This document shows positions 21,201-42,502 of a DNA stretch of 64,000 nt, in pieces. The notes beneath the pieces were generated by a model. It was given only the letters and a program-made list of their open reading frames with translations, did not search any database and had not been told where the DNA came from. The translations under genes and the position numbers were made by a program. The DNA comes from Paecilomyces variotii (lineage: Eukaryota), in assembly GCA_004022145.1 (NCBI GenBank), contig RCNU01000011.1. One strand, 5' to 3'. How positions within the stretch are numbered: position 1 is the first letter of the stretch; every line of letters begins with the position of its first letter.

Positions 21201-22253
21201 GACGACGGTCAGTGACTATGGAGGACTTGCGGACAGCAGGACTTCCAGTCGGGGTCGTCCCACTCGGTTCTGTTTGTTCAGAGCTTACACCTAACTGCGA
21301 CACTCGACGGGATGATCTTCTGGTACGTATAGCTTCCGTCGTTTCCACTTCAGGGGTTTCATCTGGCCGTAGGTCTTCTTTCAACGCATTAAGCTCCTCT
21401 GCCAGGTCCCCTTCATCAATTTCGGAAGTATCCGCATCGCTGTCAGAATCCTGCGCTCCGGCGAGCTCATCAGGTGGGTGCCGGATGACAGTGCCTTGAT
21501 CTGACGCGACATCATCCTGGATGTCGAAGAGAGACATCTCTTTCCCGGTGTGTAAATTCCGTGGCAAATCCCACCGCACATCTTCCTCAAGATCGTCACC
21601 GGCACTCCATCCGGAAAACGAGATGCGTCGACGCTTCCGAGGCGGGATATTAACCGTAGGTCTTGCAGAGAACGATCTCTTCAGATACGGTCGCCCAAAC
21701 GGGACTCCATCAATCAAGTGTCTTCCATCCATCGAGATCTGAAGTCGGCCTGATATGCGCCTCGCTCTCATATCGGAGAGTTGTAGAGCTCGAATACTGC
21801 ACGAACAAAGTAATTAGCCAACGTTACCTCTACACACGTAACAAAACTTAAATCAAATCGAGGAGTCGTGACTAACACAACCTCGTCCCCATCCCTCAAC
21901 AAACCCTCCACTTCCATGAAATGCAGACACTCGAACCCATTCACTTCAACCACATAATCCTCTAGACCCCACTGTCCGATTTCGTTCTCTTCGCCATTAT
22001 AATCGCCTCTCGCGCCAGTAATGCTTCCGCCCTTCGTCTCGAGTGGGATCACCTCGTTCACATCCTCGAGCAACTGCGCGATGGTGTAGTCATCATTTCC
22101 GTACGTCGCGTTCGGTGTTCGCGTCGATGTAAGAGCGGATGCAGACGATGCGGATCTAGGCGCTGGTACCGCCTGAGTTGATGGAGGAGAAGTCGTCCAT
22201 AGGATTCGCGTGACGGGGAGCCCGTGTCGTTGGATGATGAGATGGAGACGCAT
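18253..22253 (-). CDS. Large Ser/acidic nuclear protein with a coilin-like Tudor domain (putative fungal coilin homolog)
   Basis: N-terminus MRLHLIIQRHGLP...LEDYVVEV..FECLHF..LLRDGDEV, intron 21876-21797, Ser/Glu tract, basic NRRNKMRRK, and GAIIAFKQLDMSKATNWQPKISEYRVARV...ELIEPKLL resembling the coilin C-terminus. Whether 18253-19491 is spliced on or the protein stops at 19522 is uncertain. Confidence 0.7.
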
Positions 22254-23052
22254 GTTGTTGGTTCCCGTTTGTTGCGGGTGGATGCGTGCTTGGTTATGCG
22301 ATGGGATTCATTGACGAAAGGCCATCGAGATGCTTCGCTGATTTTCAGTACTTAGGCGCAATGAAAGAAGAATGGAGCGCTCGCGGGGCCAGCGCAGAGC
22401 TTGAAAGCGCGCGGGAGCGTAACTAATGCGAATGGAAGGAAAAGTTCAAAGGGGCGCGGAAAGGAACCCGTTGCGCGTAGTTGGCTTGAAAACAAGTCAG
22501 GCGACAATAAAAGTCAGGAGTTTCTCGTAATAAAAACTTCCCGCGAAGAGGAAAAGTATTGCGTCGAATATTATCGCGCCAGTTAGTTTCGAGCAGCGGA
22601 GGTTTTTGCGGAATGAAATGATGATGCCAAGCGGAGCGGTGATTCCACGTGGTCCGGCGCGCTTTCGGTTTAAGTAGCAGCCTATAAACTACTATCAGTA
22701 ATACTGCCTCATAGTTACCTAACTATGTTATTATCATGCACTAGATGATGATAGTTCGGTGTGCTTGCACAGCTCTTGACATCAATAGCAATTATTTCAT
22801 ACTCGTCCCTATCTACATATTACTCATCTCCCTTCGCCACGCCGACTTAATCCAAAGCGATCGCAAGGAGTCAAGAGGGGAATAATAACGGATCTCTAGA
22901 CACCGATTCCTGGAGAAAACCGGCCTTTTCTCCACATGTAACACCGAGGGGGAAATTCCAAAGGATATATGAATGATACAACTAGGATCTTGAAAGCCAT
23001 GACCAGTGACCCAACGCCAGATCATGCAACTTTGCTCAGGGAGTAGAAAAAA

Positions 23053-23165: not shown

Positions 23166-25329
23166 TTATGCTCCTGGAGTCGGAGGCTGCTTGCCGTTTG
23201 AATGGCCTGGAACGGGTTTTCGATGGGGCACACCCAAATTCATGCGTAAATTCGTGTTTGACGGCCTCCGCTGAGCAGCATTATCGGTCGCTGAGAGAGG
23301 ACTTAGCTGCGTTGGCATTGGCTGATACTCTGGTAGAGGTTCGTCGTGCCGCTGTTCAGCGGAATAGGGGCGCACATCAACCGGTGACAAGGCCGGACTC
23401 ACGTTCTCAGGGCTGGAGTGCGAATCAGTAGGCGTTGAAGGAAGCATATCAAACGATTCGACAGAGGCATTGGAATGTATCGTGCCAACACTGTCGGGGA
23501 ACAGTCTCTCCCTACCCTTCTCGTCCGGAGATCCAACACCTGTTTCTGACACTGTCCGTCTCCCGGAAATGCCATCTGGGGGGTTATAGTCACGTCGTGG
23601 ACCGTCTACTGGGCCGAGATCTTCGGCAATAGCATCTTCATAGCTTGGAGGAGCGTCTGCGTAGCCATCTTCCGGATAGGCTGGTACTGGGGGAGCGGAT
23701 GGCCTTGGGGGCATCGGAGGACGTTGACTTGGGCTTGTGGGTGTTCCTGCTGACTCGGCGGCTTTGCCATTCCTGCCAGCCATTGCGTCCAACAGAGCCT
23801 GTGGCGGAGCAACTCCCGAGTATACCTTGACTGGAATTCTCAGCGGTAGTACCGCCATAGTCAACTGCTACTGTTAGCAGAATTTCCTAAGGATAAAGAG
23901 ACGTCTGTGATCCTGCAAAGAAGAGGCAGTAGGGCCAGCGTACCTTGGGTGCTCCTTTGATTCCGTGGCTCAAGCCAACGCGTACTTCCAGCTCATAAGT
24001 TCTCCAGATATTGCATGTTTCAAAAGATGGAGCGACAGAACTTGGAAGAGGTATCCGAGACCAGATTGCGGGATCGATCTTAAATTCTTGGCCAGGAGCG
24101 TCTTCGCCTCTGATTAAAGGCTGGTTCATATTACTGTGGCTCACTAGAACCCAGCTGCCACTTTCTTTCCTTGCCAGATCATGTGCACGGATATGTGTAT
24201 ATGCTATCAACTCAATCTGAATCATCTGCAGGTATATAGTCTCCAGTGTATCTGAGATTTTCGTTACCAGAACGCGGAGAGGGATTGGTTCGTTGATTGT
24301 TAGAATCGGAGGGTTTGGCAGTCTCGCATCGACGGAGAAACGAGGGCCGTCTGCGGAGGAGAGGCCCGTTGTACCGGATATTTTCTGAAAGAGACCTCTC
24401 TTTTGTGATGGGGCTCCAGGCCTTGTAAACTGATGTTGTCGCCGCGCGTATGTCTCTTCTTTCGGATCCCCCATTTTCGGGGGTTCGATAGGGAGGAAGT
24501 TGAATTCGGATATCTAAACGAGCATGTCAGTAGCTATACCACAGCTGACCGTGAAATCATGCAGTCCTGGCTCATTTCAGAATATTCATTCTCGTTAACG
24601 TTGGGGACATCCGAGAACATACCGATCGGATATTCTCCTTGTAGAACTGCGGCCGGACAATAGTCGCTTTAACATAGTACTTAATCTCCGCTTCTCCAGG
24701 AAACCCCCTCAATGATGGAGGCAACGTCTTCTTAACATGGCGATCAGTATCCCGTGCCACTTCGAGTCTCAGTCCAGTCATGTTGAGATTCGTCAACATG
24801 CTGTTATGGGTGCTGCATGAATTATTGAACGGGAACTAGAGAGCAGTCAGCACCCAGCTTTGTACTGAAGACGTATATATATAGCCTCAATGCCTGCATG
24901 TATTCACCTTAAATTTGAATGGGTACTCATGCACTCCAGCAGGAAGGGTATAAACTGCACTGGAGCCATGCTGATAGACCTCCGGACTGGGGAAAACCGT
25001 GGAAACTTTGTAAAGCAGCTGCAGACCCAATCAGCCCACTCCGGTCGATTCGAAATGATCGATGCGCAATTGTGCTCTGCAGTCAATATACAACACGTGG
25101 ACGTGACCTGACTTACCTTATGAACCTCTAGTTCCGTCTTCTTCTTGTCCGGTCTAACATCGCCCTGATACCGCGGGCCCGCCAGCCGCGTCCGACTTTC
25201 ACCTTCCAACTTCACCTGGATAGCACTGATCGATGTATCCGTCACAAGCTGCACAATGACCTTCCCGGTGATGATGTCCAGATTCGTGAAATATGCGTGA
25301 GGCCGGTCCAGATGGATCCTCGCCGTCAT
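23166..25329 (-). CDS. Arrestin-fold protein with PY motifs (ART-like ubiquitin ligase adaptor); about 5 exons
   Basis: FTNLDIITGKV...IQVKLEGESRT, ELEVHK, LPPSL, IKYYVKATI.RP, APSFETCNI.RTYELEVRVGL; Pro-rich tail with PPSYED and LPEY. Confidence 0.85.
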
Positions 25330-28092: not shown

Positions 28093-28801
28093 CTATGCCT
28101 TGCTGGCGATCTTCTCAGGAACTTCGGTCTGGACGTTCACCACAGCGTGGAGCAGATCTTCGACAACCTTGTCGCCCTTCTCCGCTCCCAGCTTCTTGAT
28201 TTCCTCAAGCTTCGCCTCAGCTTCCTTATTAGCCTCTTCCTCGGCCTTCTTGTTTCCGCTCGAGTGCTATTTCGGGAAAGATATATCGTTAGTCCACCCT
28301 GAATACCAGTAAACTGCCAGGCCGCCCTGGTAGTTGGAAACTCTAGACATGAACAGCCAGCTCACCTCTGCCTCGAACTTCTTGAACTCTTCCTCCTTTT
28401 GCTTTCTGTAGTCCTCAATCTCCTTCTGTGCCTCTGTCTTTGCGTCCTTTACTCTCGTAGTGCGGTCTGGGTGACGAGTAGTTAGAATATGCCTCGCGAA
28501 TGCTCGATAGGTGGAAAGAGGGGTAGAAGTCTGTACATTCTCTGGCTAAACATCCTCGTCAGTATACGTTGCGCTAAATAGACAAGGGGTAACCTGGTAA
28601 CTCACCTTTCTGCACAATCTTCTGGGCTTCTCGTTCCGCCTGGAATAACCCATTAGTGAAACAGTTTCATTGTATTTCCTGAGTAGGTCGAGGGCCACTC
28701 ACGTCCAGCAACGTCTGGATACCTGCGGAGTTCTGGGCAGACTGCAAGGAAGGTTAGTAATTTCTCTGTGCACTGTGATCAAGCCACCGGAAACATACCA
28801 T
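28093..28801 (-). CDS. vma10: V-type ATPase subunit G; 6 coding exons, missed by the ORF track
   Basis: Spliced product MSAQNSAGIQTLLDAEREAQKIVQKAREYRTTRVKDAK.EAQKEIEDYR.QKEEEFKKFEAEHSSGNKKAEEEA...KIASKA*; ATG-only first coding exon and 9-nt exon 28537-28545. Confidence 0.95.
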
Positions 28802-29429
28802 CTTGGCGAATCGATCTCTATAAATATCAGTGAGACCGACGTCAAGAGGGTTATATCAGGTGGAGGTGCTGGAGATCGTGGAGCTGTGTAGTGACCGCAG
28901 CTCAGACACTCCGGGGCCGATCGAGGCCACGCCCATGCGGGCCTCGATTCTGCCGCTCCTCACCGCTATTTGAATACCTCGCAATCGCCGTGGCTTATCT
29001 CAGCAAGCTCAGACCCTCTAGCGAGATGCCCCCCCTACGGGTGGGCTTTTTGCTGTAATAGCCTATATTAGTGCATATACTAAAGACCTGGGCCAATAAT
29101 ATAATATAAAAAAACCCTCACTAATTTTTAGACTAATAGTAAGCTATATAATAAAAAATCTTATAAAAGGTCTAAAAATAATTAATTATAATTTATAAGA
29201 GATACTTAAATAATCTTATATAAAATTAAGTATTAATTTTTAATATTATATTTTATATCTTAAATTATATCTATTTAAGTTAAAAATAGGCTTAATTAAT
29301 TTATTTTAATCTTCTTTATCTCTAATATTTAATATAGAGCCCTAATCTTATATAAAAATATTTTAAAAATAATATCTAGAATTGCTATTATCTAATATAT
29401 CCTTAAATTATTTATTCTTACCTCCCGCA

Positions 29430-32093
29430 GAGATTATATTATTAAATAATCTTAAAATTAATAAGAATAAATATAAAAGGGCTTATACTAGGATAAAGAA
29501 TAATAATATTAATATTTATAATCTAGAGGGCTTAAATAAGTATCCTTTATATTAGACTTAGCAGAAACTATAGATATTTATTAATTATTTATATAATTAT
29601 TATTAGAGCTTTTAATAGTTTATATATATTTAGATTATATATTTTTTAGAGATTTAGTATTATTGCTATTATACTTATAAAATAAAATAAACTTTTTAAA
29701 AAGAGATATTAAATAAGATATTAAAGATTAATAATTAATATAATTTAGCTTCTATAGCTAAGATAAAGCTTAATAAGCTTATTAAATAATCTTATTTTAA
29801 GAAGTTTAATTATATTATTTTAATAAAGGATATTAATTTTAAAATTATTTTTAATATTATTTAAAATATTATTTTAAGATTATATAAGTTTCTCTATAAT
29901 TTATTAAGAAATTACTACACTTATTAATTAAGTTATATTAATTAATATAATAAAAAAAGTTTTTAATAGCGCCTATTTATTATTATTAATATAATCTATT
30001 ATTCTTAATATATAAAATAGTTAAACTATTTATCTTTAATATTTAATACTTATTTAATAGGCTTAAAAGTAAAATATTAAGTTATAAAAACTTTATTAGG
30101 TCTTAGGCTATATTATAATTATATATAAAGGAATTATTTAATAAAATAAATAGCAGACTATAAATAGATAGTTTAATTTCTATTCTAATATTTTATATAA
30201 GTAGTTTTAACTTTTATATACTTCTTAAATAACCTTTAAACTCCTAAATAATTAAAAGATTAATCTTAATTATAGTTATACTTATTAATTATAGAAAAGA
30301 ATCTATAAGCTATTATAATCTATAATAATATAAATTTTAAAGAAATAATATATAATAAAATCTTTAAGTATAAAGCTATAATATATGCAGTAATTATAGT
30401 AATAATTATATTATATTCTAATATCTTAGTAATAGGCCTATTATAAAATATATATAATCTAACTATTTTTTTTAATTTTTATAATATTATTAAGTCTTTA
30501 ATAATATATAGTAATAATAATAGTATTAAAAAGTAAATATCTAGCTTTCTTATATTAAATATAATTATAAAGATATATTTATCTTTTATTAAAAGAATAT
30601 TTAGATTAATTAAGTTAATAATACCTATTATATTAGAATTAGATTATCTTACTCTAAATTAAATATAATTTTAATAATTTAAAATAATCTTTAAAGATAA
30701 AAAGATTATTATTAAGACTTATAATATTTATAATAATATCTTTTTTTAATAATTATATCTCTATATTTCTTAAGAATTAGGAAAGCCTAATAATTTTAAT
30801 ATATGCCTTTAATTTATCTATAGCAATTAGCTTATAGTAGAGTATATTTAAACTATATAAACTAAGTAATTATATATTAAATTGCCTTATAATTAAAGGT
30901 AATAGCTTCTTAGAGTTCTTATATAATTTTATATTTAATTAAACCTATTAAATATAATAATATAGATATATTTTATACCTATAATATTTAGTTAAGAAGC
31001 ATATTATTATATTAAATCTAATATATCTATATAGGGATATAATTAAATAAATCTAAAGAACCCTAAATATTATTAATTAAAGCCAATTATTTTATAGAGT
31101 TTTATAATCTAAGTCTTAGCTTTATTTTATTATTTAATAAAGTATAAAAGATATCTTATAACTATTATTAATAACTCTCTTAAAAAATAATAAGAATATA
31201 ATTAAGTTATTAATATTTTAGCAGCTATAGATTACTTATAGCTTATTAAGAATATTTAATTTATAGTATTTATACTAAATATCTAGAAAGAGATTAATCC
31301 CTATATAAAAGAACTTATCTAAGATATTAGATTTTATTTTATATATCGGCTATTATAAGAAATTAAGTTATTTCTTATTATTTAATATGCTATTAAATAT
31401 AGTAATATTAGGCTTCTTTATTACTTAGTTAATCTATTAATTATTTATTTTTTTAGCATATCTTAATATAACTATAGTAATAAAATACTATATTACTAAT
31501 AATATCTATCTTTAGTTAATAATCTAGAGCTATAATATACTATTCTAATATTAGGTCTTATTAATTAGCAAGGTAAGCTTACTTATTTTAAAGTAATTAA
31601 TCTTAGCCTTAAGCATCTAAATATAAACTATAAAATTAAAATAAAAGCCTATTAAAATTCTATACATAATATAAATATTAGCTTTAACTAGGTTTATTTA
31701 ATAAATACTTAGATATAGAGTTTATAAAAAAGGATTAAGTCTATATTTAATTAATATATACTTAATTTATATATTATAGCTTCTATATTAGATAAGATAT
31801 TTTTATTAGCTTAAAATTTATTAATTAATAATCTTATTATACTAAGAGACTTTAAATATCTCTTTAATTCTTTAGCTCTATTTAACTTAGAGAATATCTT
31901 ATAGATTAGAATAAAATAACTTATTAAAAAGGTTAATTAGTCTAATAATAGCTATATCTATTATATAGAGATAATTGCTAGTATATAGTCTATTAACAAT
32001 AATAATATTAAGCATAATATTAGTAAATATACTATTATTATTAATAAATGCTATAATAGGATTTTTATTAATAATATTACCTTAAATATTTAA
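29430..32093 (+). pseudogene. RIP-destroyed Academ/DUF6589-type transposase (ends approximate)
   Basis: One frame gives, on reversing C>T/G>A: YL.GSGVKRRVIETL.GLGLC (~30050-30115), YDN.NF (30321), GDQLT (AGC AAT TAG CTT ATA, 30822-30836), WLLGVPAWFH (30903-30932), A.KHGD.GLL, LVNWQGK, and DLGLEHLN (31599-31622) followed by NSTHD. Confidence 0.8.
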
Positions 32094-32550
32094 TATTAGA
32101 TAAATATATAACCTATTTAATAATCTGTTAACTTTTTATAGGACTTACTAACTCCCTATAAGATTTAGGCTAATAAAAGAATAAGTATATAATAAAATAT
32201 ATAATATTTAATTACCTTAAACTTCTAAGCTAATATTAAGAGGGTTAATATATAGATTATATAATTCTTTACTCTCTTAAACTCCTAAATTAATAGTAAA
32301 AGATTTAATATATATTAATTAGCTAAGAAGCTCTATTATCCCTAGTAAAATAAAATAAGGTATAATATATAAAGATCTATATTAGCTATTTTAATAGACT
32401 AATTATATCTTTATTTAGCTATACTTTAAATTAGCTCTAAAATATATTGCCTAAATATTATTATATAAAGATATAGAATCTAATTTTAGTATTTTCCCCT
32501 CTCTTATTTATTAATATTAACTTAACCTAATAAATATAGTATATTAGCTA

Positions 32551-32785
32551 ATATTTATAATTAGGCCTTTTTAAGATACCTTAAAATATTTAGCTATATA
32601 GCCTACTAATTATTAAAGACTTAATTAAAGCTTACCTATAAAATAAAGTAATTAATATAAAGATTATTATATCTTTAATTAATACTTATAATTAAGCCCT
32701 TTTAAGATACCTTAAAATATTTAGCTATATAGCCTATTAATTATTAAAGATTTAATTAAAGTTTACTTATAAAATAAAGCAATTA
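32551..32785. repeat. Two 104-bp direct repeats (period 131) inside the transposon
   Basis: 32551-32654 versus 32682-32785: 8 mismatches, all transitions. Confidence 0.9.
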
Positions 32786-34499
32786 GAAGATAAAGCTTAC
32801 TTAATATAAATTAAATATTAGTATTTATTAAACTATAATAGCACTGCTATTAATTTTAAAAAAAAGAACCCCTTTTTAGTAATAAATATTAAGGAGAGAA
32901 TAGCAGTAGCAAGAGAGCCTATTTATATTATTTATTTAAGTTATAGCCTTTAATATAAGCAGCTAAGTAATAATAAATATAAATATCTCTTAATTTATAT
33001 ATCTATTAAGTATTCTTTATAAAATAGACCTAATATTCCTTATTATAAAACTAATAAGCTATATATTTATTTGTCTTAAAGAGTTATTTACTTAATTTAA
33101 TCTTTATAATATAGCTAATATAGCTAATATTATATTATTTATTAAGATTAAGATATTTCTAGTCCTTTTATTTAAAGGACTATTATTTTTTAATAGTTAT
33201 AGAGATATATATCTCTATTATTTTGCCTTTAAAGGTCTATATTTAAAATAAATATAGCTAATTAGCTATTTAAGACTAATTATATTATTCTTATATAAAA
33301 CTAAGAGTAAGTATAATAATATTTATTAAAGGCAGATTTATAATAATAAGAGTTATAGATATTAAAGATAAAGTTCTATTATAATAATATTAATATCTAT
33401 TCTCTTTTAATAATACTATTACTTATAAAAATATTTCTAAATCTTTACTTAAAATAGGCCTAATAAAATTATTATTATTATTATTATTATTATAATCTAT
33501 TTTAGCTATAAAAAATAGATTAAAAACTTATAGCAGACTCTTTAACAATAATAAGAAGGGTATAGATAGTAATAGACTTAAAGATAAAGAAGAGCTAAAT
33601 TATATATTTAGTTATTTTAATTTAATTTTGCTAATCTACTATTATTTTTACTAATTAATAAAAATAAAATAATAGGGAAAGGCTAGAGATTAGATATATT
33701 AATCTTATTTAATAATACTTAGAGCTAGTATATTATATAGAGAAGGGCGAGGCTCTACTTTAAATTAAAGAATTTCTCTTAAAATTATTATAATAATAAT
33801 AAATATTTCTATTTTATTAAAAAATATTATAATAAGATAGCTAAATATCTAGATTATAAGAGAATAGGCTATCTTAATATTTATTATTTTAAAAAAAAAA
33901 GAAAGAGTTAAAAATTTATAAGTATATTTATTTCTACTTAAATAAAGCTAATATCTAATAAATCTATTATATTATATTATATAAATATATATTATTATTA
34001 GCTAAAAAGAACTTAATACTTCTTAAAATTATCTAGAACTATTTAAAAATTATTAAGATAATTTAGAAGTCTATAAGATAATTTAGGAGCTAAGAAAATT
34101 TAGATATATCTATATAAGACTTCTATCTTAATATCTTTAATATTACTTTTTTAATATAAAAAAATTCTCTTTCTTAATTATTATTAAAGTTTTAATCTTT
34201 TTATTTTTTATTATAGGCATCTATATAAGCCTTTTATTAAAATTTTACTCTTATAAAGATTATTGCTTAATTAATATTTTTAATATTTAAGTAATCTATT
34301 TTTTTTAAAAAGATATTCTTAGAGAAAATAATAGCTTAACTAATATATTTATTACCTTTTTATTTAATCTATTTAATAAATTATCTAAGCTATTTAGTCT
34401 ATAGAGCTTTAAAAAAGTCTCCTATAATAATATTATTAGTATTTAAACTAATAAATAAGAGATTAAATACTTTATTTATAATTTTTTAATTATAATTTA

Positions 34500-36720
34500 T
34501 CTTATTAACTATATAATAAGAGAATTATCCTTTTATTAAATAAACTTAGCATATTCTTTTTTTATATTAAAGGAGATATCTAACTAATAAGTATTCTCTT
34601 ATTACTAGCTTTAGTCTAAACTCTAAGCTAATCTCTTAATTATATATAAATTAGCAACTTCTTAAGCTATATACTATAATTATTAGATTAAATTATTATT
34701 ATATAATTCTTTATACTGCTATTTTTAAACTAATAGAGCTTATATAATTAGCTTATTAAACTTTATATTAAAAGTTATTTTCTTTAAGCTATATAAAGCA
34801 GAAATTTATTATTAATAATCTTAGCTTATAAATATAGTAGATATTATAGGGAAATATTAATTTTAATATAGATATATTAACTCTACTTATAAAATAGCTT
34901 ATTAATTAAGTAATTCTAGAGTAATATTAATATAACTCCTATTATATAATTTTTTTATAAATTTCTTCTTTAATAGAGATATAGTAGAGGTTAAGATTTA
35001 AAATAGATTATATTTATTATAACAATCTTATACTAATAAAAAAGATATTTTAATATATAGTAATATTCTATTCTTATTTAAATAAGATAAAAATACTTTT
35101 TAATAATAAGGCTTATTAATAATTTACTTCTAATAAATAGAGAGTTTAAATTAATATTTTATTTCTTTTTAATTCTAATATCTCTTTTAAGATATAGATT
35201 CTTAGCTTTATATAGAGACTAATAATAAGATACTTTTAATCTTACTAATATTCCCTAATATAATTAACTTAAATAATTAACTATTTTAAGATTATAGCTT
35301 TAAGCTTTAAGTAACTATAAAAGCTAATGCTTATTTTATAAGTCTATTAATACTCTTTAAGTTAAAGGCCTAATATAGAAGTATAATATAGCCTTTATTT
35401 ATTTAACCCTTTTTATAGCTATTATATTCTATCTATTATTAGATATTATAGATATTTAAACTAATTAAGAACTTCTAGTTAATAATATACTTAATATTAG
35501 ATATATTAATTCTTATCTTAAGAGTAATTATTATTATTATAATATATATTTTAAATAAAATAGATTTAAATTTATTAAAGCGGATCCCCTAGTTATATAA
35601 TAAAATATATAATATAAAGGTTTAGATTATTATATTAACTAAATAAGAGCTATCTTTTATTCTAGAATACTAATAATTTAATAATAATAATATAGACTTT
35701 ATTAAAAGCATTTAATAAAGATATTTTACTACTATCTTAATCTTCTAAATATTATCTATAAAAATAATTATTTTTAGTATATATTTAAGTATTACTTTAT
35801 TATTTTTAATAGCAGTATTTAAAAGGAAATATAATATTTTAAAAGAAGATAACTTCCTATATAGAATAAATAAGATATAGATAAATATATCTATTTAGTT
35901 AATAGAGATCTAAATAATTTTAATTTAATAGGATTAATCTCTAATAGCTTTAAAGCCAGCTCTTTAAATAATTTCTTTCTTATTATTTTTAATAAATATT
36001 ATAAAATAATTAAACTAAATAATATCTTATTTTAAGATTAACTATAATTTACCTAATATAATAAATTTAAGCTAGAATATTTCTTATTATATAATTAAAT
36101 AGTATTTATTAATTATTATAAGACTAATCTTAGCTTATATCTTTAGCCTTAATAATATATCTAGAAAAAGCTTTAATATAGCCTATTTAAGGCTTAAAAG
36201 TATATATATATATACTAGCTTAGATATCTTAAATAAGATTATATTATTATTATTTAGTCTTATTATTAATAATATATAGCTTTATTTTTTAAAGCTTTTT
36301 AATATCTTATATTTACTCTTTAATAAGCTTATTTAAAGATATTATTTAAAGAATTATCCTTTTTATTATAATTAAAAATAAATAAAAGATAAGACTTTTC
36401 TTAAATCCTATTTATATAATAAGAAGAATATTATTATAGCTATATATTATTTATTAAAGATATTAAATCTACTCTAAATATAGGGAATATTTAGATCCTA
36501 GATTTATTACTTAAAATATATACTTTAAATAAGCTTTAATTATATAATATTAATAAGAAATACTCTCTTTATTAATAAATATATTAATTATTAATAATAA
36601 GTCTTTTAGCTTTATTTTTAATATCTTAGCTAATATTAAAGAGATAGTATCCCCTGCTAATATATTATAAGGTATAATATTCTTATAAAGTCTATATTAT
36701 TAACTTTATTTATTTAAATC
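34500..36720 (-). pseudogene. RIP-destroyed RecQ-like superfamily 2 helicase of the transposon (ends approximate)
   Basis: De-RIP reading gives RPEQ...D.LL.ARTGFGKSLIF (Walker A 36417-36394), P L.KL.EEQ, LLGPEQA, VAIDECH (DECH 36110-36099), ATVALGMG.D.PD (35534-35496), WQR.GRGGR (35441-35415), CRR and CC..CNP (35024-35004). One 2-nt slip in a (TA)n run near 36205. Confidence 0.82.
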
Positions 36721-37395
36721 CTTTAATCTTATTATTTTTACTCTATAGCTTAAGAGTTTATTAATATTTAAATATATTTTTATTAATTAGTCTAAGAGTT
36801 TATAAAAGATTAAATATAAGATAAAATATTATATTTAAGTAATATTAAGGCTATAAAATAATATTAAGATTTAAATATACTGCTTAGTAAAATTAAATAT
36901 AGCAACTTTAATATTATAATTATATATTAATAAAATATCTTAATATATTAAAATATATATAAATTAAAATAGAAATAATAACTAAATCTATAATATTTAA
37001 CTCTAACTAATTTAATTTAAAGTTAGTAGAGTTATTTATTATTAAAGTTAAATAAAGCCTTAAAAAAATAATTAAATTAATATTATTTACTAATAAACTA
37101 TAACTATTTATTCTTAAACCCTTATTAAAAAAATTTTTATTATTATTATATTAGGTTTAGTATAGCTGCCCTAATATTATTAGCTTAAATTTTTAAGCTA
37201 GTTTGTACTAGTTTCTAAATAGTATAGTTGAAGCACTAATTCTTTGGCGAGGGTCTGAGCTTGCTGAGATAAGCCGTGGCCGGGGTCTGAAATGTCCGCT
37301 CCGATTATAAAAACCAGAAATTCGCTGTATTTCTCGTATTGCAGTCTTACGAGAGCTCTGGTCATCATCGGAGGAGCCAATTGCTAATATCAGAG

Positions 37396-37746
37396 ATGTC
37401 GCGAGCTTCGAAAGTGACCTTGGCGCTCACAACGGCTGCAACCGCGGGCATAGTCTACTTTGTCCACTGGTCCCAGGAAGCCGACAGAGCAGTAAGTGAT
37501 GACGCCAACTCTTTAGCCCTTACTTATAGTAATCTATTCTATACATATTGTGCTGACTTTTATATCCCGTAGGCAATGCATGCTGGTGTGGAACGAGACG
37601 TCGAGCGGCAGCGCATAAAACAAGAACGGCAGGCCGAATTTGAGATGCAGAGAAGACTAGAAGAGGAGTACCGAAAGATTCAGACGGTATCTGATAGTGT
37701 CAATGATAGCTCAGAAGGAGGAAAGAACATAGGCCAGAGAACGTGA
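37396..37746 (+). CDS. pet117: Cytochrome c oxidase assembly factor Pet117; 2 exons
   Basis: MSRASKVTLA...IVYFVHWSQEADRA / intron 37492-37572 / AMHAGVERDVERQRIKQERQAEFEMQRRLEEEYRKIQTV. Confidence 0.92.
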
Positions 37747-38204
37747 CCAGGGGTAGCCGTGCAAAGTCCTGGCCCTTAGGTCGGTACCAAACAATATGGT
37801 TAGGATCTTAAAGCTGGCATAATGTCCGTGAGGTTTCAAATTGAAAAGGGTAAAACGGTTCAACTAATATCTTAATGAAGGCTGCTGACTCGTCAGTGAC
37901 AGGATATATGCCTCAAATTGCACGGGCACCCGAAGTACCCGAATATCTTATATTCGAGATATACCCACATGTACAATATAACGAACGAATGGAGTCTTCT
38001 CTCTGCAATGACCAAGCTCAATCACACCATGGGTCTCAACTTGAAAATATCCCTGATATGTCAAATGGCGCATGTCTAGCGCCAATTCCATATCAATATC
38101 CGTCGGAGTAACTGATGGAAGGAACTGCCTGCTGCTCACCGCCTGCCCCTTGACCGGAGTTCTCCCATATAATTCCCTAACATTATCACCCAGCAACGAA
38201 CCCA

Positions 38205-40476: not shown

Positions 40477-40860
40477 ATAGCTATACCCACGACCCTTAGA
40501 TTTGGGTACTGTTGAGAGCTGACCAGATAACGCAGGATATGAGGTCGCAAATGTACGTGTTAGGAGTCTGTGAAGGGGGAATGGAAGGCTAGCATCTACA
40601 GTAGCGTCCGCGTTGCTTACCTAGTGCCAAGCCATACTTAAGCACATGGACAACACAGCCTTACACTGAACGAGATTGGCGATTCGTCAGAGCATTGCTG
40701 ATGCGCATCCTTCAGCAGTCAGATGAGGTTTCAGAAATCTTTCAGTCATCGGTTCTGATTGGCTTTACTGAGGAAGCGTATCTGAATATTCGTTATAAGG
40801 AGATAAGTAACCCGCTATGATGATTTTCCGTAATCGAAGACGATCGGGCTTTAGGGGAAG

Positions 40861-42502
40861 ATGTCAACAACTCAGGTGTTGTCGTCCCCACCTGCTTCTC
40901 CAACTATACGAGGTGCAACGACGGAGCCAAACAGCCCGGCAGAAGCCTCTATCAATGACCTTGGCCGCTTTGCGATACTGATACCGGACAATGGACAAGC
41001 TCGATTGGCGGTCGATGCGACAGTGCGTCTCGGCAGCGTCTATCATCAGCAGTTCATCAAGGAAGTACAGCGCGACGGCAAATGGGTTAACGCTTTCGAG
41101 TTTTCTCTCAGCAACCTGCCGCAATTCGCACATATCGGATGGCGAATAGGCCGAGGTCGCACGTCGCTCGAGAACCGGGGAGTGGACCTACTTCTGCACG
41201 TGGAAGATGATGCCAATATCGAGGAAGAGGATGCTGTTGCTGGCATCCATGCTCGCTTCAACTGGGTCAAGGGTGCTGGAGGGTTCTTCCTCATTGCTTC
41301 CAACAAGAAGGGCAAGAGAGTCATGTTGAATGGCGACGTGTTCAGACATGACCAACGACTCATACCCCACCAAAATGCCATCATGATCGGTGGATGTGTT
41401 TTCACTCTTAGGTATGAGCTGCGGAATGCCGAAGAGGAAGAACAGTTCCAAGTGGAACTGACTCAGTTCTTTCGTCAGTTCCATCGTGATGAGAATCCTT
41501 TTGTTCTTCCCACGCCAAGTGAGAACGACTCCCGATTCCAGGACTGGATTTTCTCACGGCCAATATCAAGGGGGAGTTATGGAGTGGTGTATACAGTCGT
41601 GAACGCTCGAAGCGGACAAGTAGGAGCAGCGAAACGTATTTTGAAATCCAGGCGAAATGCAAGACATGTGAATTGTGAGATCGCAATGACCAGGCGCATT
41701 TCTGGCCTCGTACATGTCAGCGCCCCCTCTAAAAGCCAACTGTGGTCTTCACTCTAATGGGCCTGAGCAGGAACGGATTGCAACCGCGCTCGAAATCCAC
41801 CATATCAAAGGAGGCCCATCCAGGGTCGAAGTTGTAAGGCAGTTCGGTTCTTCGACTAAGCGAGCTATACTCATTTCTCTCCAGGAAAGAATCCGAAGCA
41901 ATCTAGACGAAAAATGGCAGCCAACTCCTTACGATGTCACAGACGAATATCTCATCATCTCACCTCTTCTCAATGCCACATTTCGTTCCCTTTATGAATC
42001 TAACGTAAATACAGACGGCCGTGCAATATTCTTTGCCCAGCTGTTAGATGCAGTCGCCTTCCTTCATGAAAATGGTATCTGCCATCGCGACATAAAACCA
42101 GACAATATCTTGGTGAAGAGTTACGATCCACCTGCAGCTATGCTGACTGATTTCGGGTGCGCTTCGGACAAGCCAGTTATACTGTATGATTTTCCAGGAA
42201 CTATTCCCTACCTTGCGCCCGAGCAAGTCGAGAAGAGGACACACGATCGTTCTGTGGATTACTGGAGTTGTGGGTTAGTTGGGCTCGAATTGACGCTGCG
42301 CAGAACATACGGACGGAGAATCATGTCGTCCGATGATCTATCTGAGTGCCAAAAACATCTTGAAGGTTCAGACTCGCCTACGGCGATATGCGCTGGCAGA
42401 ATGCTTCAGTTAGAACCAAGTGCAAGACTGACAGCGGAGGAAGGCTTCAAACTACTTGAAGACCTGCGTAACAAAAACTCGGGAAAACGGAAAAGGTGCT
42501 AA
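40861..42502 (+). CDS. FHA-like domain plus Ser/Thr protein kinase; 2-3 exons
   Basis: FHA-like WRIGRG...GIHARF...VMLNG; kinase SRGSYGVV, AAK, HRDIKPDN, DFG, GTIPYLAPE, DYWS, R.TAEE. Intron 41716-41770 and a probable 51-nt in-frame intron from 41834. Confidence 0.82.

What the first reader, a model, noticed from the sequence alone, without database searches (positions are those of the whole stretch)
28995..37272. The empty 8.3-kb AT-rich block is a complete helicase-carrying (AcademH-type) transposon hidden by RIP
Seen: no ORF of 60 aa or more lies within the element, yet it has perfect 24-bp TIRs and an 8-bp direct repeat. Allowing only C>T and G>A reversal, one + frame gives an ordered motif series (YDN 30321, GDQLT 30822, WFH 30924, DLGLEHLN 31599). 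The - strand gives SF2 motifs in the right order (ARTGFGKS 36417, DECH 36110, ALGMG.D.PD 35525, QR.GRGGR 35438, CC..CNP 35024). Known: AcademH elements pair an Academ transposase with a RecQ-like helicase between TIRs, and the role of the helicase is unresolved. Inference: this is an end-to-end copy of such a family in a Eurotiomycete, invisible to gene callers and possibly undescribed at family level.
Basis: partly seen in the sequence, partly recalled or inferred. Interest (0 to 1): 0.85.

Follow-up and report, generated by a model that had tools for sequence, protein, structure and literature searches.

The report
RIP-killed helicase-carrying DNA transposon
The gene-free AT-rich block is a dead but structurally complete jumping gene of an ascomycete fungus that once encoded a cut-and-paste enzyme and a RecQ-like DNA helicase; this is a known kind of element, so it is a tidy annotation result and not a surprise.

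Summary
Window 28995-37272 is an 8278-bp block at 15.8% GC. It has perfect 24-bp inverted ends, an 8-bp target duplication (GCCGTGGC) and strong RIP indices confined to the block.

The + strand (29445-32085, one frame, no frameshift) is the ruin of a DUF6589 (PF20231) protein. Read through with X at stops, it found 193 proteins at E<=1e-3, best 3.9e-59. A RIP-aware profile raised this to 547 bits.

The - strand (36435-35415) holds a RecQ-like SF2 helicase core, visible only with a RIP model. It scored 48.1 bits, against 19.6 +/- 1.7 (max 24.0) in 120 simulated strands and about 20 on the + strand. RecQ was best of 23 E. coli helicase-type frames.

The architecture therefore works like AcademH. 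Membership is not established. The 8-bp duplication differs from the published 9-10 bp. The link between DUF6589 and Academ could not be tested here and rests on recall and on taxon distribution. The claim that the host is a Eurotiomycete is also unproven: the host is an ascomycete, and the closest named relative comes from Histoplasma.

Interest is modest.

The parts
28987..28994 (.). left target-site duplication GCCGTGGC (8 bp)
   Evidence: Read directly. It is identical to 37273-37280 and forms part of inverted pair I25.
28995..29018 (+). left terminal inverted repeat, 24 bp, not RIP-mutated
   Evidence: exact match, 2 matches in the window, 0 expected. The same 24-mer occurs exactly in 3 metagenome contigs.
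29166..29176 (-). possible subterminal inverted copy of the TIR core (RIP-degenerate match TTTAGACCTTT)
   Evidence: The pattern count in the window is 8 against 7.9 expected, so this is suggestive only. An un-RIPed relative, L002, has an exact inverted TIR core in a similar position.
29445..32085 (+). remnant of ORF1, a DUF6589 (PF20231) putative DDE transposase, in a single frame (frame of 28995). Candidate catalytic residues: D of YDN (30324), D of GDQ (30825), E of LEHLN (31611).
   Evidence: It aligns to residues 66-853 of the 915-aa P0212 and 135-937 of the 989-aa P0208 without a frame change. The family profile scores 499.9 bits and ends at 32085.
32544..32785 (+). internal direct repeat, two copies of 111 nt, period 131, 91% alike
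   Evidence: family D1. Its role is unknown.
35415..36435 (-). remnant of the RecQ-like SF2 helicase core. Motif I at 36420-36388; DExH plus QWG at 36110-36081; motif V at about 35540-35493; motif VI (QxxGRxGR-compatible) at 35438-35415. One frame change near 36201-36192.
   Evidence: 279 codons are colinear with RecQ profile columns 81-360, scoring 48.1 bits against a null maximum of 24.0.
37113..37123 (+). possible subterminal inverted copy of the TIR core (CTTAAACCCTT)
   Evidence: Symmetric to 29166-29176. Not significant on its own.
37249..37272 (-). right terminal inverted repeat, 24 bp, perfect
37273..37280 (.). right target-site duplication GCCGTGGC

Best explanation
This is a fossil autonomous cut-and-paste DNA transposon of an ascomycete. 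It is structurally full length but killed by repeat-induced point mutation (RIP).

When alive it carried two convergent genes between 24-bp inverted ends. One encoded a protein of about 900 aa or more of the DUF6589 family, most likely a DDE transposase with an RNase H-like core split by a large helical insertion; the candidate triad is D of YDN, D of GDQ and E of LEHLN. The other encoded a RecQ-like SF2 helicase.

Inferred mechanism: the transposase binds the ends, excises the element and inserts it with cuts staggered by 8 bp, which gives the GCCGTGGC duplication. The helicase helps to unwind or repair DNA at the ends or the target, as proposed for AcademH elements.

After the element reached at least two copies, RIP converted about 95-100% of C at CpA and CpG to T on both strands. 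That created about 300 stops per frame and dropped GC to 16%.

It works like an AcademH element. I do not file it as a proven member.
For: Shown:
- Perfect TIRs and an 8-bp duplication.
- A RIP signature confined to the element. Fitted C-to-T rates are 0.95 at CpA, about 1.0 at CpG, 0.51 at CpC and 0.31 at CpT.
- ORF1. The X-read-through frame found 193 proteins at E<=1e-3, 84 at <=1e-10 and 15 at <=1e-30 in 1.84 billion representatives; the best was 3.9e-59. Of 10 top hits scanned, 9 carry PF20231 at E 1e-55 to 4e-66. All 115 relatives of P0001 carry PF20231.
- The RIP-aware profile of + frame 0 hit 247 of 247 stored family proteins (best P0177, 547 bits). The other five frames hit 0 of 247.
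- ORF1 is colinear in a single frame over residues 66-853 of the 915-aa P0212.
- Helicase. A RIP-aware chain alignment to a profile of 31 proteobacterial RecQ proteins scored 48.1 bits on the - strand and 20.1 on the + strand. The null of 120 simulated strands had mean 19.6, sd 1.7 and max 24.0.
- Further helicase controls: reversed profile 21.2 and 24.6; 20 column-permuted profiles reached at most 24.9; three other gap settings gave 38.4-56.4 against 20.1-20.7.
- RecQ scored 43.4, with the next best at 29.7, among 23 E. coli PF00270-type frames. The motif sites rank 2nd to 64th of about 16,500.

Inferred:
- The DDE fold. AF2 models have pLDDT 76 and 88. The only Foldseek hits with probability above 0.5 are the P element and Hermes transposases, at E 0.036-0.06.
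- The link to Academ. DUF6589 clusters are commonest in Mollusca, Basidiomycota and Mucoromycota. Papers report Academ in the same groups (passages).
Against: - The target duplication is 8 bp, not the 9-10 bp reported for AcademH, and I have only this one copy.
- No call shows that DUF6589 is the Academ transposase. Kojima 2020 and Yuan & Wessler 2011 are not held.
- With plain translation there is no Pfam helicase hit in any - frame at E<=1, no PDB hit at E<=10, and the same alignment scores only 19.4 bits. The helicase therefore rests on my own RIP model and scoring.
- HMMER with RIP-aware profiles gave only E 0.045-0.06 to E. coli RecQ.
- No RecQ C-terminal (Zn/RQC/HRDC) signal was found.
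- No Foldseek hit reached E<=1e-3.
- No intact relative with both genes inside these TIRs was seen. The scans of viral and prokaryote collections found none, and no fused form was found.
- About 3.3 kb (32100-35400) is unexplained.
Confidence: 0.7

Rival explanations
1. It is a DUF6589 transposon that is not Academ-related, or belongs to an unnamed superfamily, and that picked up a RecQ-like gene. Alternatively, two unrelated repeats are nested: a helicase-bearing element (for example a telomere-linked-helicase-type repeat) sits inside or beside a DUF6589 element, and both were RIPed together.
For: - The 8-bp duplication does not fit AcademH.
- The DUF6589-Academ link is untested.
- 3.3 kb between the two remnants is unexplained.
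- The interiors of the three metagenome contigs that share the TIR are not colinear with this one, so the same ends frame different contents.
Against: - The RIP block coincides exactly with one TIR pair, as expected if the whole 8.3 kb was the repeated unit.
- No second TIR or duplication was seen inside.
- Published AcademH elements carry exactly such DEAD + Helicase_C helicases in fungi (passage).
- The taxon distribution of DUF6589 mirrors that of Academ.
Confidence: 0.17
2. The helicase signal is an artefact of the permissive RIP-aware reading. The element then encodes only the DUF6589 protein plus degraded non-coding or unknown sequence.
For: - All standard tools on the plain translation are silent.
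- HMMER with RIP-aware profiles is barely above noise.
- The alignment needs a frame change, and motif VI is outside the scored path.
Against: - The same scoring gives 19-25 bits for the + strand, for simulated strands (n=120), for the reversed profile and for permuted profiles (n=20), against 48.1 observed.
- Three profile pieces hit independently in colinear order with matching spacing: 36297 at column 127, 36047 at column 208, 35450 at column 360.
- The signal is specific to RecQ among 23 helicase-type frames.
- The RecQ-specific DExHxxxxWG site ranks 3rd of about 16,500.
Confidence: 0.08
3. It is not a mobile element but an AT-rich isochore or a horizontally acquired AT-rich segment.
For: AT-rich gene-free blocks exist in fungal genomes (general knowledge).
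Against: - It has perfect 24-bp inverted ends with an 8-bp direct duplication.
- The same ends sit in different flanks in 3 metagenome contigs.
- It holds a transposase-family remnant at E 3.9e-59.
- The dinucleotide pattern is specific to RIP.
Confidence: 0.01

Closest known systems
AcademH lineage of the Academ DNA transposon superfamily (Kojima 2020, Mob DNA 11:15; seen only as citations and passages in PMC10045372 and PMC10799480; the paper itself is not held)
   Same: - A large TIR-bounded class II element.
- It carries a transposase plus a separate SF2 helicase of the DEAD/Helicase_C type.
- It is reported at low copy in Ascomycota, Basidiomycota and Mucoromycota.
- The role of the helicase is unknown.
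   Different: - The target duplication is 8 bp here, against 9 or 10 bp.
- Whether its transposase (DUF6589) is the Academ transposase was not testable.
- This copy is wholly inactivated by RIP.
Pfam PF20231 (DUF6589) proteins of Pezizomycotina, e.g. P0212 (Histoplasma capsulatum I7I50_04623), P0007 (Microthyrium microscopicum KAF2669316.1), and P0177 and P0167 (unnamed)
   Same: ORF1 is colinear with them over about 790 codons in one frame. It shares the YDN, GDQ, WFH and DLxLEHLN motifs. Up to 75% of aligned codons are RIP-compatible with P0177.
   Different: - These database proteins are annotated only as hypothetical or DUF6589.
- No source calls them transposases.
- Their genomic neighbours and ends could not be seen.
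RecQ-family helicases (E. coli RecQ, b3822; a profile of 31 proteobacterial RecQ proteins)
   Same: Motifs I to V are colinear, with a QxxGRxGR-compatible motif VI. A RecQ-type DExH....WG is present. RecQ is the best match among 23 E. coli helicase-type frames.
   Different: - The score is only 48 bits, so the relation is distant.
- No Zn-binding, RQC or HRDC signal was found.
- It is carried by a transposon rather than being a host repair gene.
hAT (Hermes) and P element transposases
   Same: hAT and P elements have an 8-bp target duplication (recalled). They give the best, though weak, structural matches to the DUF6589 model: 6dwz_A at E 0.036 and 6pe2_A at E 0.051, probability 0.57-0.72. 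They share the layout of a DDE core with a helical insertion domain (layout recalled; inferred from the model).
   Different: - No sequence-family match: only PF20231 was found in 9 of 10 relatives scanned.
- TM-scores are 0.2-0.37.
- hAT and P elements carry no helicase.

Membership tests
AcademH (Academ superfamily) | Academ-type DDE transposase | not testable with these tools
   No Repbase or Academ profile is on hand, and Kojima 2020 and Yuan & Wessler 2011 are not held. ORF1 is a DUF6589 protein. That DUF6589 equals the Academ core is recalled or assumed. The only support is a matching taxon distribution. In 2017 the Academ core had no Pfam model.
AcademH (Academ superfamily) | a separate SF2 helicase gene (DEAD + Helicase_C) inside the element | tested here: met
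   A RecQ-like core lies on the - strand at 36435-35415. It scores 48.1 bits against a null maximum of 24.0 (n=120) and is best among 23 E. coli frames. It is seen only with the RIP model. Plain Pfam finds nothing.
AcademH (Academ superfamily) | target-site duplication of 9 or 10 bp (passage in PMC10045372) | tested here: not met
   The duplication is exactly 8 bp (GCCGTGGC) and cannot be extended. It is one copy only.
AcademH (Academ superfamily) | terminal inverted repeats | tested here: met
   The ends match at 24 of 24 bp.
Pfam PF20231 DUF6589 | match to the family model above its gathering score, or clear homology to members | tested here: met
   The plain read-through scores only 16 bits, below the cut-off of 27. 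phmmer against members gives E 3.9e-59, and the RIP-aware profile gives 440-547 bits. The conserved motifs are in place.
RecQ-family SF2 helicase | helicase motifs I, II (DExH), V and VI in order, plus the RecQ-type WG after motif II | tested here: met
   All are RIP-compatible, colinear and high-ranking. There is one frame change between motifs I and II.
RecQ-family SF2 helicase | RecQ C-terminal Zn-binding/RQC (and HRDC) region | tested here: not met
Profile columns 421-773 score at most 21.0 bits, at an unrelated place (31916), which is the noise level.
RIP-mutated repeat | TpA/ApT high and (CpA+TpG)/(ApC+GpT) low relative to the flanks (usual thresholds of about 0.89 and 1.03 are recalled) | tested here: met
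   The values are 1.27 and 0.23 inside, against 0.71-0.80 and 1.19-1.21 outside. The boundaries are sharp.
RIP-mutated repeat | a second copy in the genome, now or in the past | not testable with these tools
   No whole genome is held.
hAT superfamily | hAT transposase family domains | tested here: not met
   Nine of the 10 relatives scanned gave only PF20231, and the tenth gave no family. Structural likeness to Hermes is weak, at E 0.036 or worse. Only the 8-bp duplication fits.

The most novel reading that the evidence does not exclude
The element represents a distinct Pezizomycotina clade of helicase-carrying DUF6589 (Academ-like) transposons. The clade would be defined by:
- an 8-bp rather than a 9-10-bp target duplication;
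- a 24-bp end conserved to the base in at least three environmental fungal contigs whose interiors differ;
- an inverted copy of the TIR core about 100-170 nt inside each end.

Its living relatives (the loci of P0177, P0167 and P0212) would then be a tractable system for asking what a RecQ-like helicase does in cut-and-paste transposition, and whether it sets the spacing of the target cuts.
Probability: 0.3. Interest if true: 0.45.

Novelty: new variant of a known kind. Interest (0 to 1): 0.3.

Why it matters
It turns an 'empty' 8.3-kb AT-rich block into an annotated, end-to-end mobile element. It also shows that two genes with about 300 stops per frame can still be recognised: one by plain read-through, the other only with an explicit RIP model.

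For transposon biology it adds an ascomycete example of a helicase-carrying, Academ-like element, with precise ends and an 8-bp duplication. That bears on the idea, stated in PMC10045372, that the accessory enzyme is tied to duplication length.

This copy is dead, so it cannot resolve the role of the helicase. Its value lies in pointing to intact relatives.

Tried and rejected
- Word-indexed protein search with the RIPed + frame: nothing at E<=10 among 8000 candidates. Low-complexity words crowd out the relatives.
- Search for fused transposase-helicase proteins (P0015, 'longer'): none.
- Pfam on all six read-through frames: only a sub-threshold DUF6589 hit and no helicase family.
- PDB phmmer with the - frame: 0 hits at E<=10.
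- Purine/pyrimidine-collapsed blastn of the metagenome interiors against the element: no better than a reversed control.
- RIP-aware profiles against six-frame translations of L001-L003: nothing.
- HMMER of RIP-aware - frames against 41 E. coli open frames: none at default filters. With --max, RecQ came first or second at only E 0.045-0.06. I therefore wrote a frame-aware chain alignment.
- Scans for DUF6589 loci with flanks: viral contigs gave 23 pattern hits and 0 relatives; genome contigs gave 13 pattern hits and 0 relatives.
- A RecQ scan of genome contigs gave only Enterobacterales at 77-100% identity and was not used.
- The TIR-core pattern is not enriched overall: 8 matches against 7.9 expected.
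- Sequencing runs: 5 runs of one coded species hold 93-98% of the sampled words and 2 of the same label hold 3-5%; several metagenomes hold 15-46%.
- Earlier findings of this scan: nothing relevant.
- Papers: searches for 'AcademH', 'AcademX', 'DUF6589' and 'Academ' with other terms found no paper that links DUF6589 to Academ. Supplements were not consulted.

Full report
**Observation**

The block 28995-37272 (8278 bp) is real and sharply bounded.
- The 24-mer TTATCTCAGCAAGCTCAGACCCTC occurs at 28995-29018 (+) and 37249-37272 (-) and nowhere else in the window, even allowing 3 mismatches. None of 100 shuffles gave a match.
- GCCGTGGC abuts both ends (inverted pair I25). The neighbouring bases differ, so the duplication is 8 bp and not 9 or 10.
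- GC is 12.6-22.2% in every 500-bp window inside, against 44-53% outside.
- TpA/ApT is 1.27 and (CpA+TpG)/(ApC+GpT) is 0.23 inside. The flanks give 0.71 and 0.80, and 1.19 and 1.21.
- The indices return to normal within 100 bp of each end, and the outermost ~100 bp on the left are unmutated.
- Only one ORF of 50 aa or more lies wholly inside (57 aa). The longest internal stop-free run is 60 codons.
- No open frame of 110 aa or more lies between 28312 and 39931, so the insertion is intergenic.

**The + strand**

Pfam on the six frames, read through with X at stops, gave one sub-threshold hit: PF20231 (DUF6589), E 0.005, 16 bits against a cut-off of 27, at nt 31320-31643 of the frame of 28995. 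The word-indexed protein search found nothing.

The exhaustive phmmer search of 1.84 billion representatives, using 29595-32594 read with X, found 193 proteins at E<=1e-3, 84 at <=1e-10 and 15 at <=1e-30. The best was P0001 at 3.9e-59. These are proteins of ordinary composition. Nine of the 10 scanned carry PF20231 at E 1e-55 to 4e-66; the tenth is an N-terminal fragment. They show YDNMNF, HGDQLS, WFH and DLGLEHLN.

**A RIP model**

I fitted a 64-state model of ancestral triplets to the element. The prior came from the window's flanks. The free parameters were the C-to-T rates by the following base. The fit gave 0.95 (CpA), 0.51 (CpC), about 1.0 (CpG) and 0.31 (CpT). From its posteriors I derived, for each codon of each frame, a distribution over ancestral residues.

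Profiles built from these distributions behaved as follows.
- + frame 0 hit 150 of 150 stored family proteins (P0001 at 440 bits, twice the plain score). The other five frames hit 0 of 150 at E<=10.
- After adding the 97 further relatives of P0001 (115 listed, 18 of them already stored; all 115 carry PF20231), frame 0 hit 247 of 247 and the others 0 of 247. The best was P0177 at 547 bits.
- With my own frame-aware alignment, ORF1 is colinear in one frame, without frameshift, with residues 66-853 of the 915-aa P0212 (window 29460-31958), 135-937 of P0208 (from 29445) and 155-889 of P0015. The family profile ends at 32085.
- Up to 75% of aligned codons are RIP-compatible with the residue of P0177.

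**What the protein is**

AF2 models of P0015 and P0001, each made with 50-row alignments, are confident: pLDDT 76 and 88, pTM 0.77 and 0.88. The layout is as follows.
- YDN lies on the first long strand.
- GDQ lies at the end of a later strand.
- A large helical region follows.
- LEHLN lies at the start of a helix.

This is the layout of DDE transposases with an insertion domain; that reading is an inference from the model.

Foldseek found no PDB match at E<=1e-3. The only matches with probability above 0.5 were Hermes (6dwz_A, E 0.036) and the P element transposase (6p5a_A, 6pe2_A, E 0.05-0.13). RAG1 and Transib ranked lower, among unrelated helical proteins. The fold assignment is therefore suggestive, not shown.

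**The - strand**

Plain translation gave nothing in Pfam or in the PDB.

As references I took E. coli recQ, 23 E. coli loci matching PF00270 and 30 further proteobacterial RecQ loci. Together these gave a 31-sequence RecQ profile.

HMMER with the RIP-aware - frames was feeble. RecQ was the first hit in one frame and the second in another, at E 0.045 and 0.063 with Z=41 and filters off.

A chain alignment that scores the posterior of each codon against the profile columns, and that allows frame changes, gave these results.
- Columns 1-420 scored 48.1 bits on the - strand and 20.1 on the + strand.
- 120 simulated strands with the element's own dinucleotide statistics gave mean 19.6, sd 1.7 and max 24.0.
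- The reversed profile gave 21.2 and 24.6. Twenty column-permuted profiles gave at most 24.9. Three other gap settings gave 38.4-56.4 against 20.1-20.7.
- The same alignment on the plain translation gave 19.4.

Three profile pieces hit independently in colinear order: ending at 36297 (column 127), 36047 (column 208) and 35450 (column 360). The fourth, C-terminal piece scored at noise level elsewhere.

The traceback aligns 279 codons, 36435-35448, to columns 81-360, with one frame change at about 36201-36192. As single-sequence profiles, RecQ scored 43.4, the next best 29.7 and 27.9, and the + strand controls 16-24.

The motif sites rank as follows among about 16,500 sites.

| Motif | Rank |
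|---|---|
| GxGKS/T | 2nd |
| DExH | 14th |
| RecQ-type DExHxxxxWG | 3rd |
| GxGxD | 64th |
| QxxGRxGR | 4th |

I take the helicase as real and RecQ-like. The evidence comes from my own scoring, and no close relative was seen.

**Relatives of the ends**

The 24-mer occurs exactly in three metagenome contigs.
- L001 and L003 share a RIPed subterminal sequence with each other but lie in different flanks.
- L002 is not RIPed and repeats the inner 11 bp of the end, inverted, about 100 nt inward.
- RIP-degenerate copies of that core lie inverted 148-171 nt inside both ends of the window element. The pattern is not enriched overall: 8 matches against 7.9 expected.
- Beyond the ends, the interiors are not detectably colinear with the window.

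**Comparison with what is known**

From passages in held papers:
- AcademH makes 9-10 bp duplications and AcademX 3-4 bp. The difference is thought to relate to the helicase or nuclease each encodes (PMC10045372).
- AcademH helicases are of the DEAD + Helicase_C type. AcademH is low-copy in Basidiomycota, Ascomycota and Mucoromycota (PMC10799480).
- In 2017 the Academ core matched no Pfam family, and Academ was most abundant in Pucciniomycotina (PMC5751038).
- Academ is expanded in bivalves and is among the longest DNA transposons (PMC10294476).

DUF6589 clusters in the ESM Atlas are commonest in Mollusca, Basidiomycota and Mucoromycota. That fits the Academ distribution, but it is circumstantial.

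Kojima 2020 itself is not held. The only paper found for 'DUF6589' does not mention transposons.

The element therefore works like AcademH: TIRs, a large transposase and a separate SF2 helicase. It fails the one published trait I could test, the duplication length, and its transposase family link is untested. I do not file it as a proven member.

**Host**

The flanks encode an FHA/protein-kinase gene whose Atlas neighbours are mostly Ascomycota. Named relatives of ORF1 come from Histoplasma, Coniosporium, Clathrospora, Verruconis, Setomelanomma, Cadophora, Ilyonectria and Microthyrium. The best-scoring named one is from Histoplasma, which I recall to be a Eurotiomycete. This does not prove the host's class.

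**Verdict**

The family label, the host class and the novelty claim are unproven, and the interest was overrated. This is a dead copy of a kind of element already described in fungi. Its modest points of interest are the 8-bp duplication and the strikingly conserved 24-bp end.

Noticed in passing
L002:1-1642 (metagenome contig): It carries the exact 24-bp end (1543-1566, - strand) with an un-RIPed interior. The inner 11 bp of the end are repeated, inverted, about 100 nt inward. At the far end (45-392, -) a 115-aa open frame looks like a fragment of a bacterial Mur ligase; that name is recalled and was not tested. It could be a chimeric contig or a captured fragment, and it remains unexplained.
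   Followed up: partly
L001:7698-7946 and L003:1421-2859: Two environmental contigs carry the same 24-bp end followed by a shared, RIP-mutated subterminal sequence. That sequence differs from both ends of the window element, and the two contigs have different flanks. A second family, also RIPed, therefore uses identical ends.
   Followed up: partly
window 32544-32785: A direct repeat of 111 nt (two copies, period 131, 91% alike) lies just downstream of the ORF1 remnant. It sits inside about 3.3 kb (32100-35400) for which no coding signal was found.
   Followed up: no
window 36192-36201: The helicase remnant needs a shift of one frame here. This could be an indel acquired after inactivation or an assembly error in AT-rich sequence. 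ORF1, by contrast, has no frameshift over about 880 codons.
   Followed up: partly
window 28995-29094 and 37173-37272: The terminal ~100 bp (left) and the last ~25-100 bp (right) escaped RIP: GC is 50% and 31%, with CpA sites intact in the TIRs. The flanking host DNA shows no RIP leakage.
   Followed up: yes
window 28500-37800 (sequencing runs): Five runs of one coded species hold 93-98% of the sampled words of this stretch, and two other runs with the same species label hold 3-5%. Several food-fermentation, plant and soil metagenomes hold 15-46%. None could be laid, so no conclusion is drawn.
   Followed up: no
window 40855-42502 (+) and 21768-22307 (-): The neighbouring host genes are an FHA/protein-kinase gene (Pkinase E 1.2e-25 on the second exon-like frame) and a DUF7357 protein (E 2.4e-28). 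An Arrestin_C-like frame at 23887-24513 is below the family cut-off.
   Followed up: no
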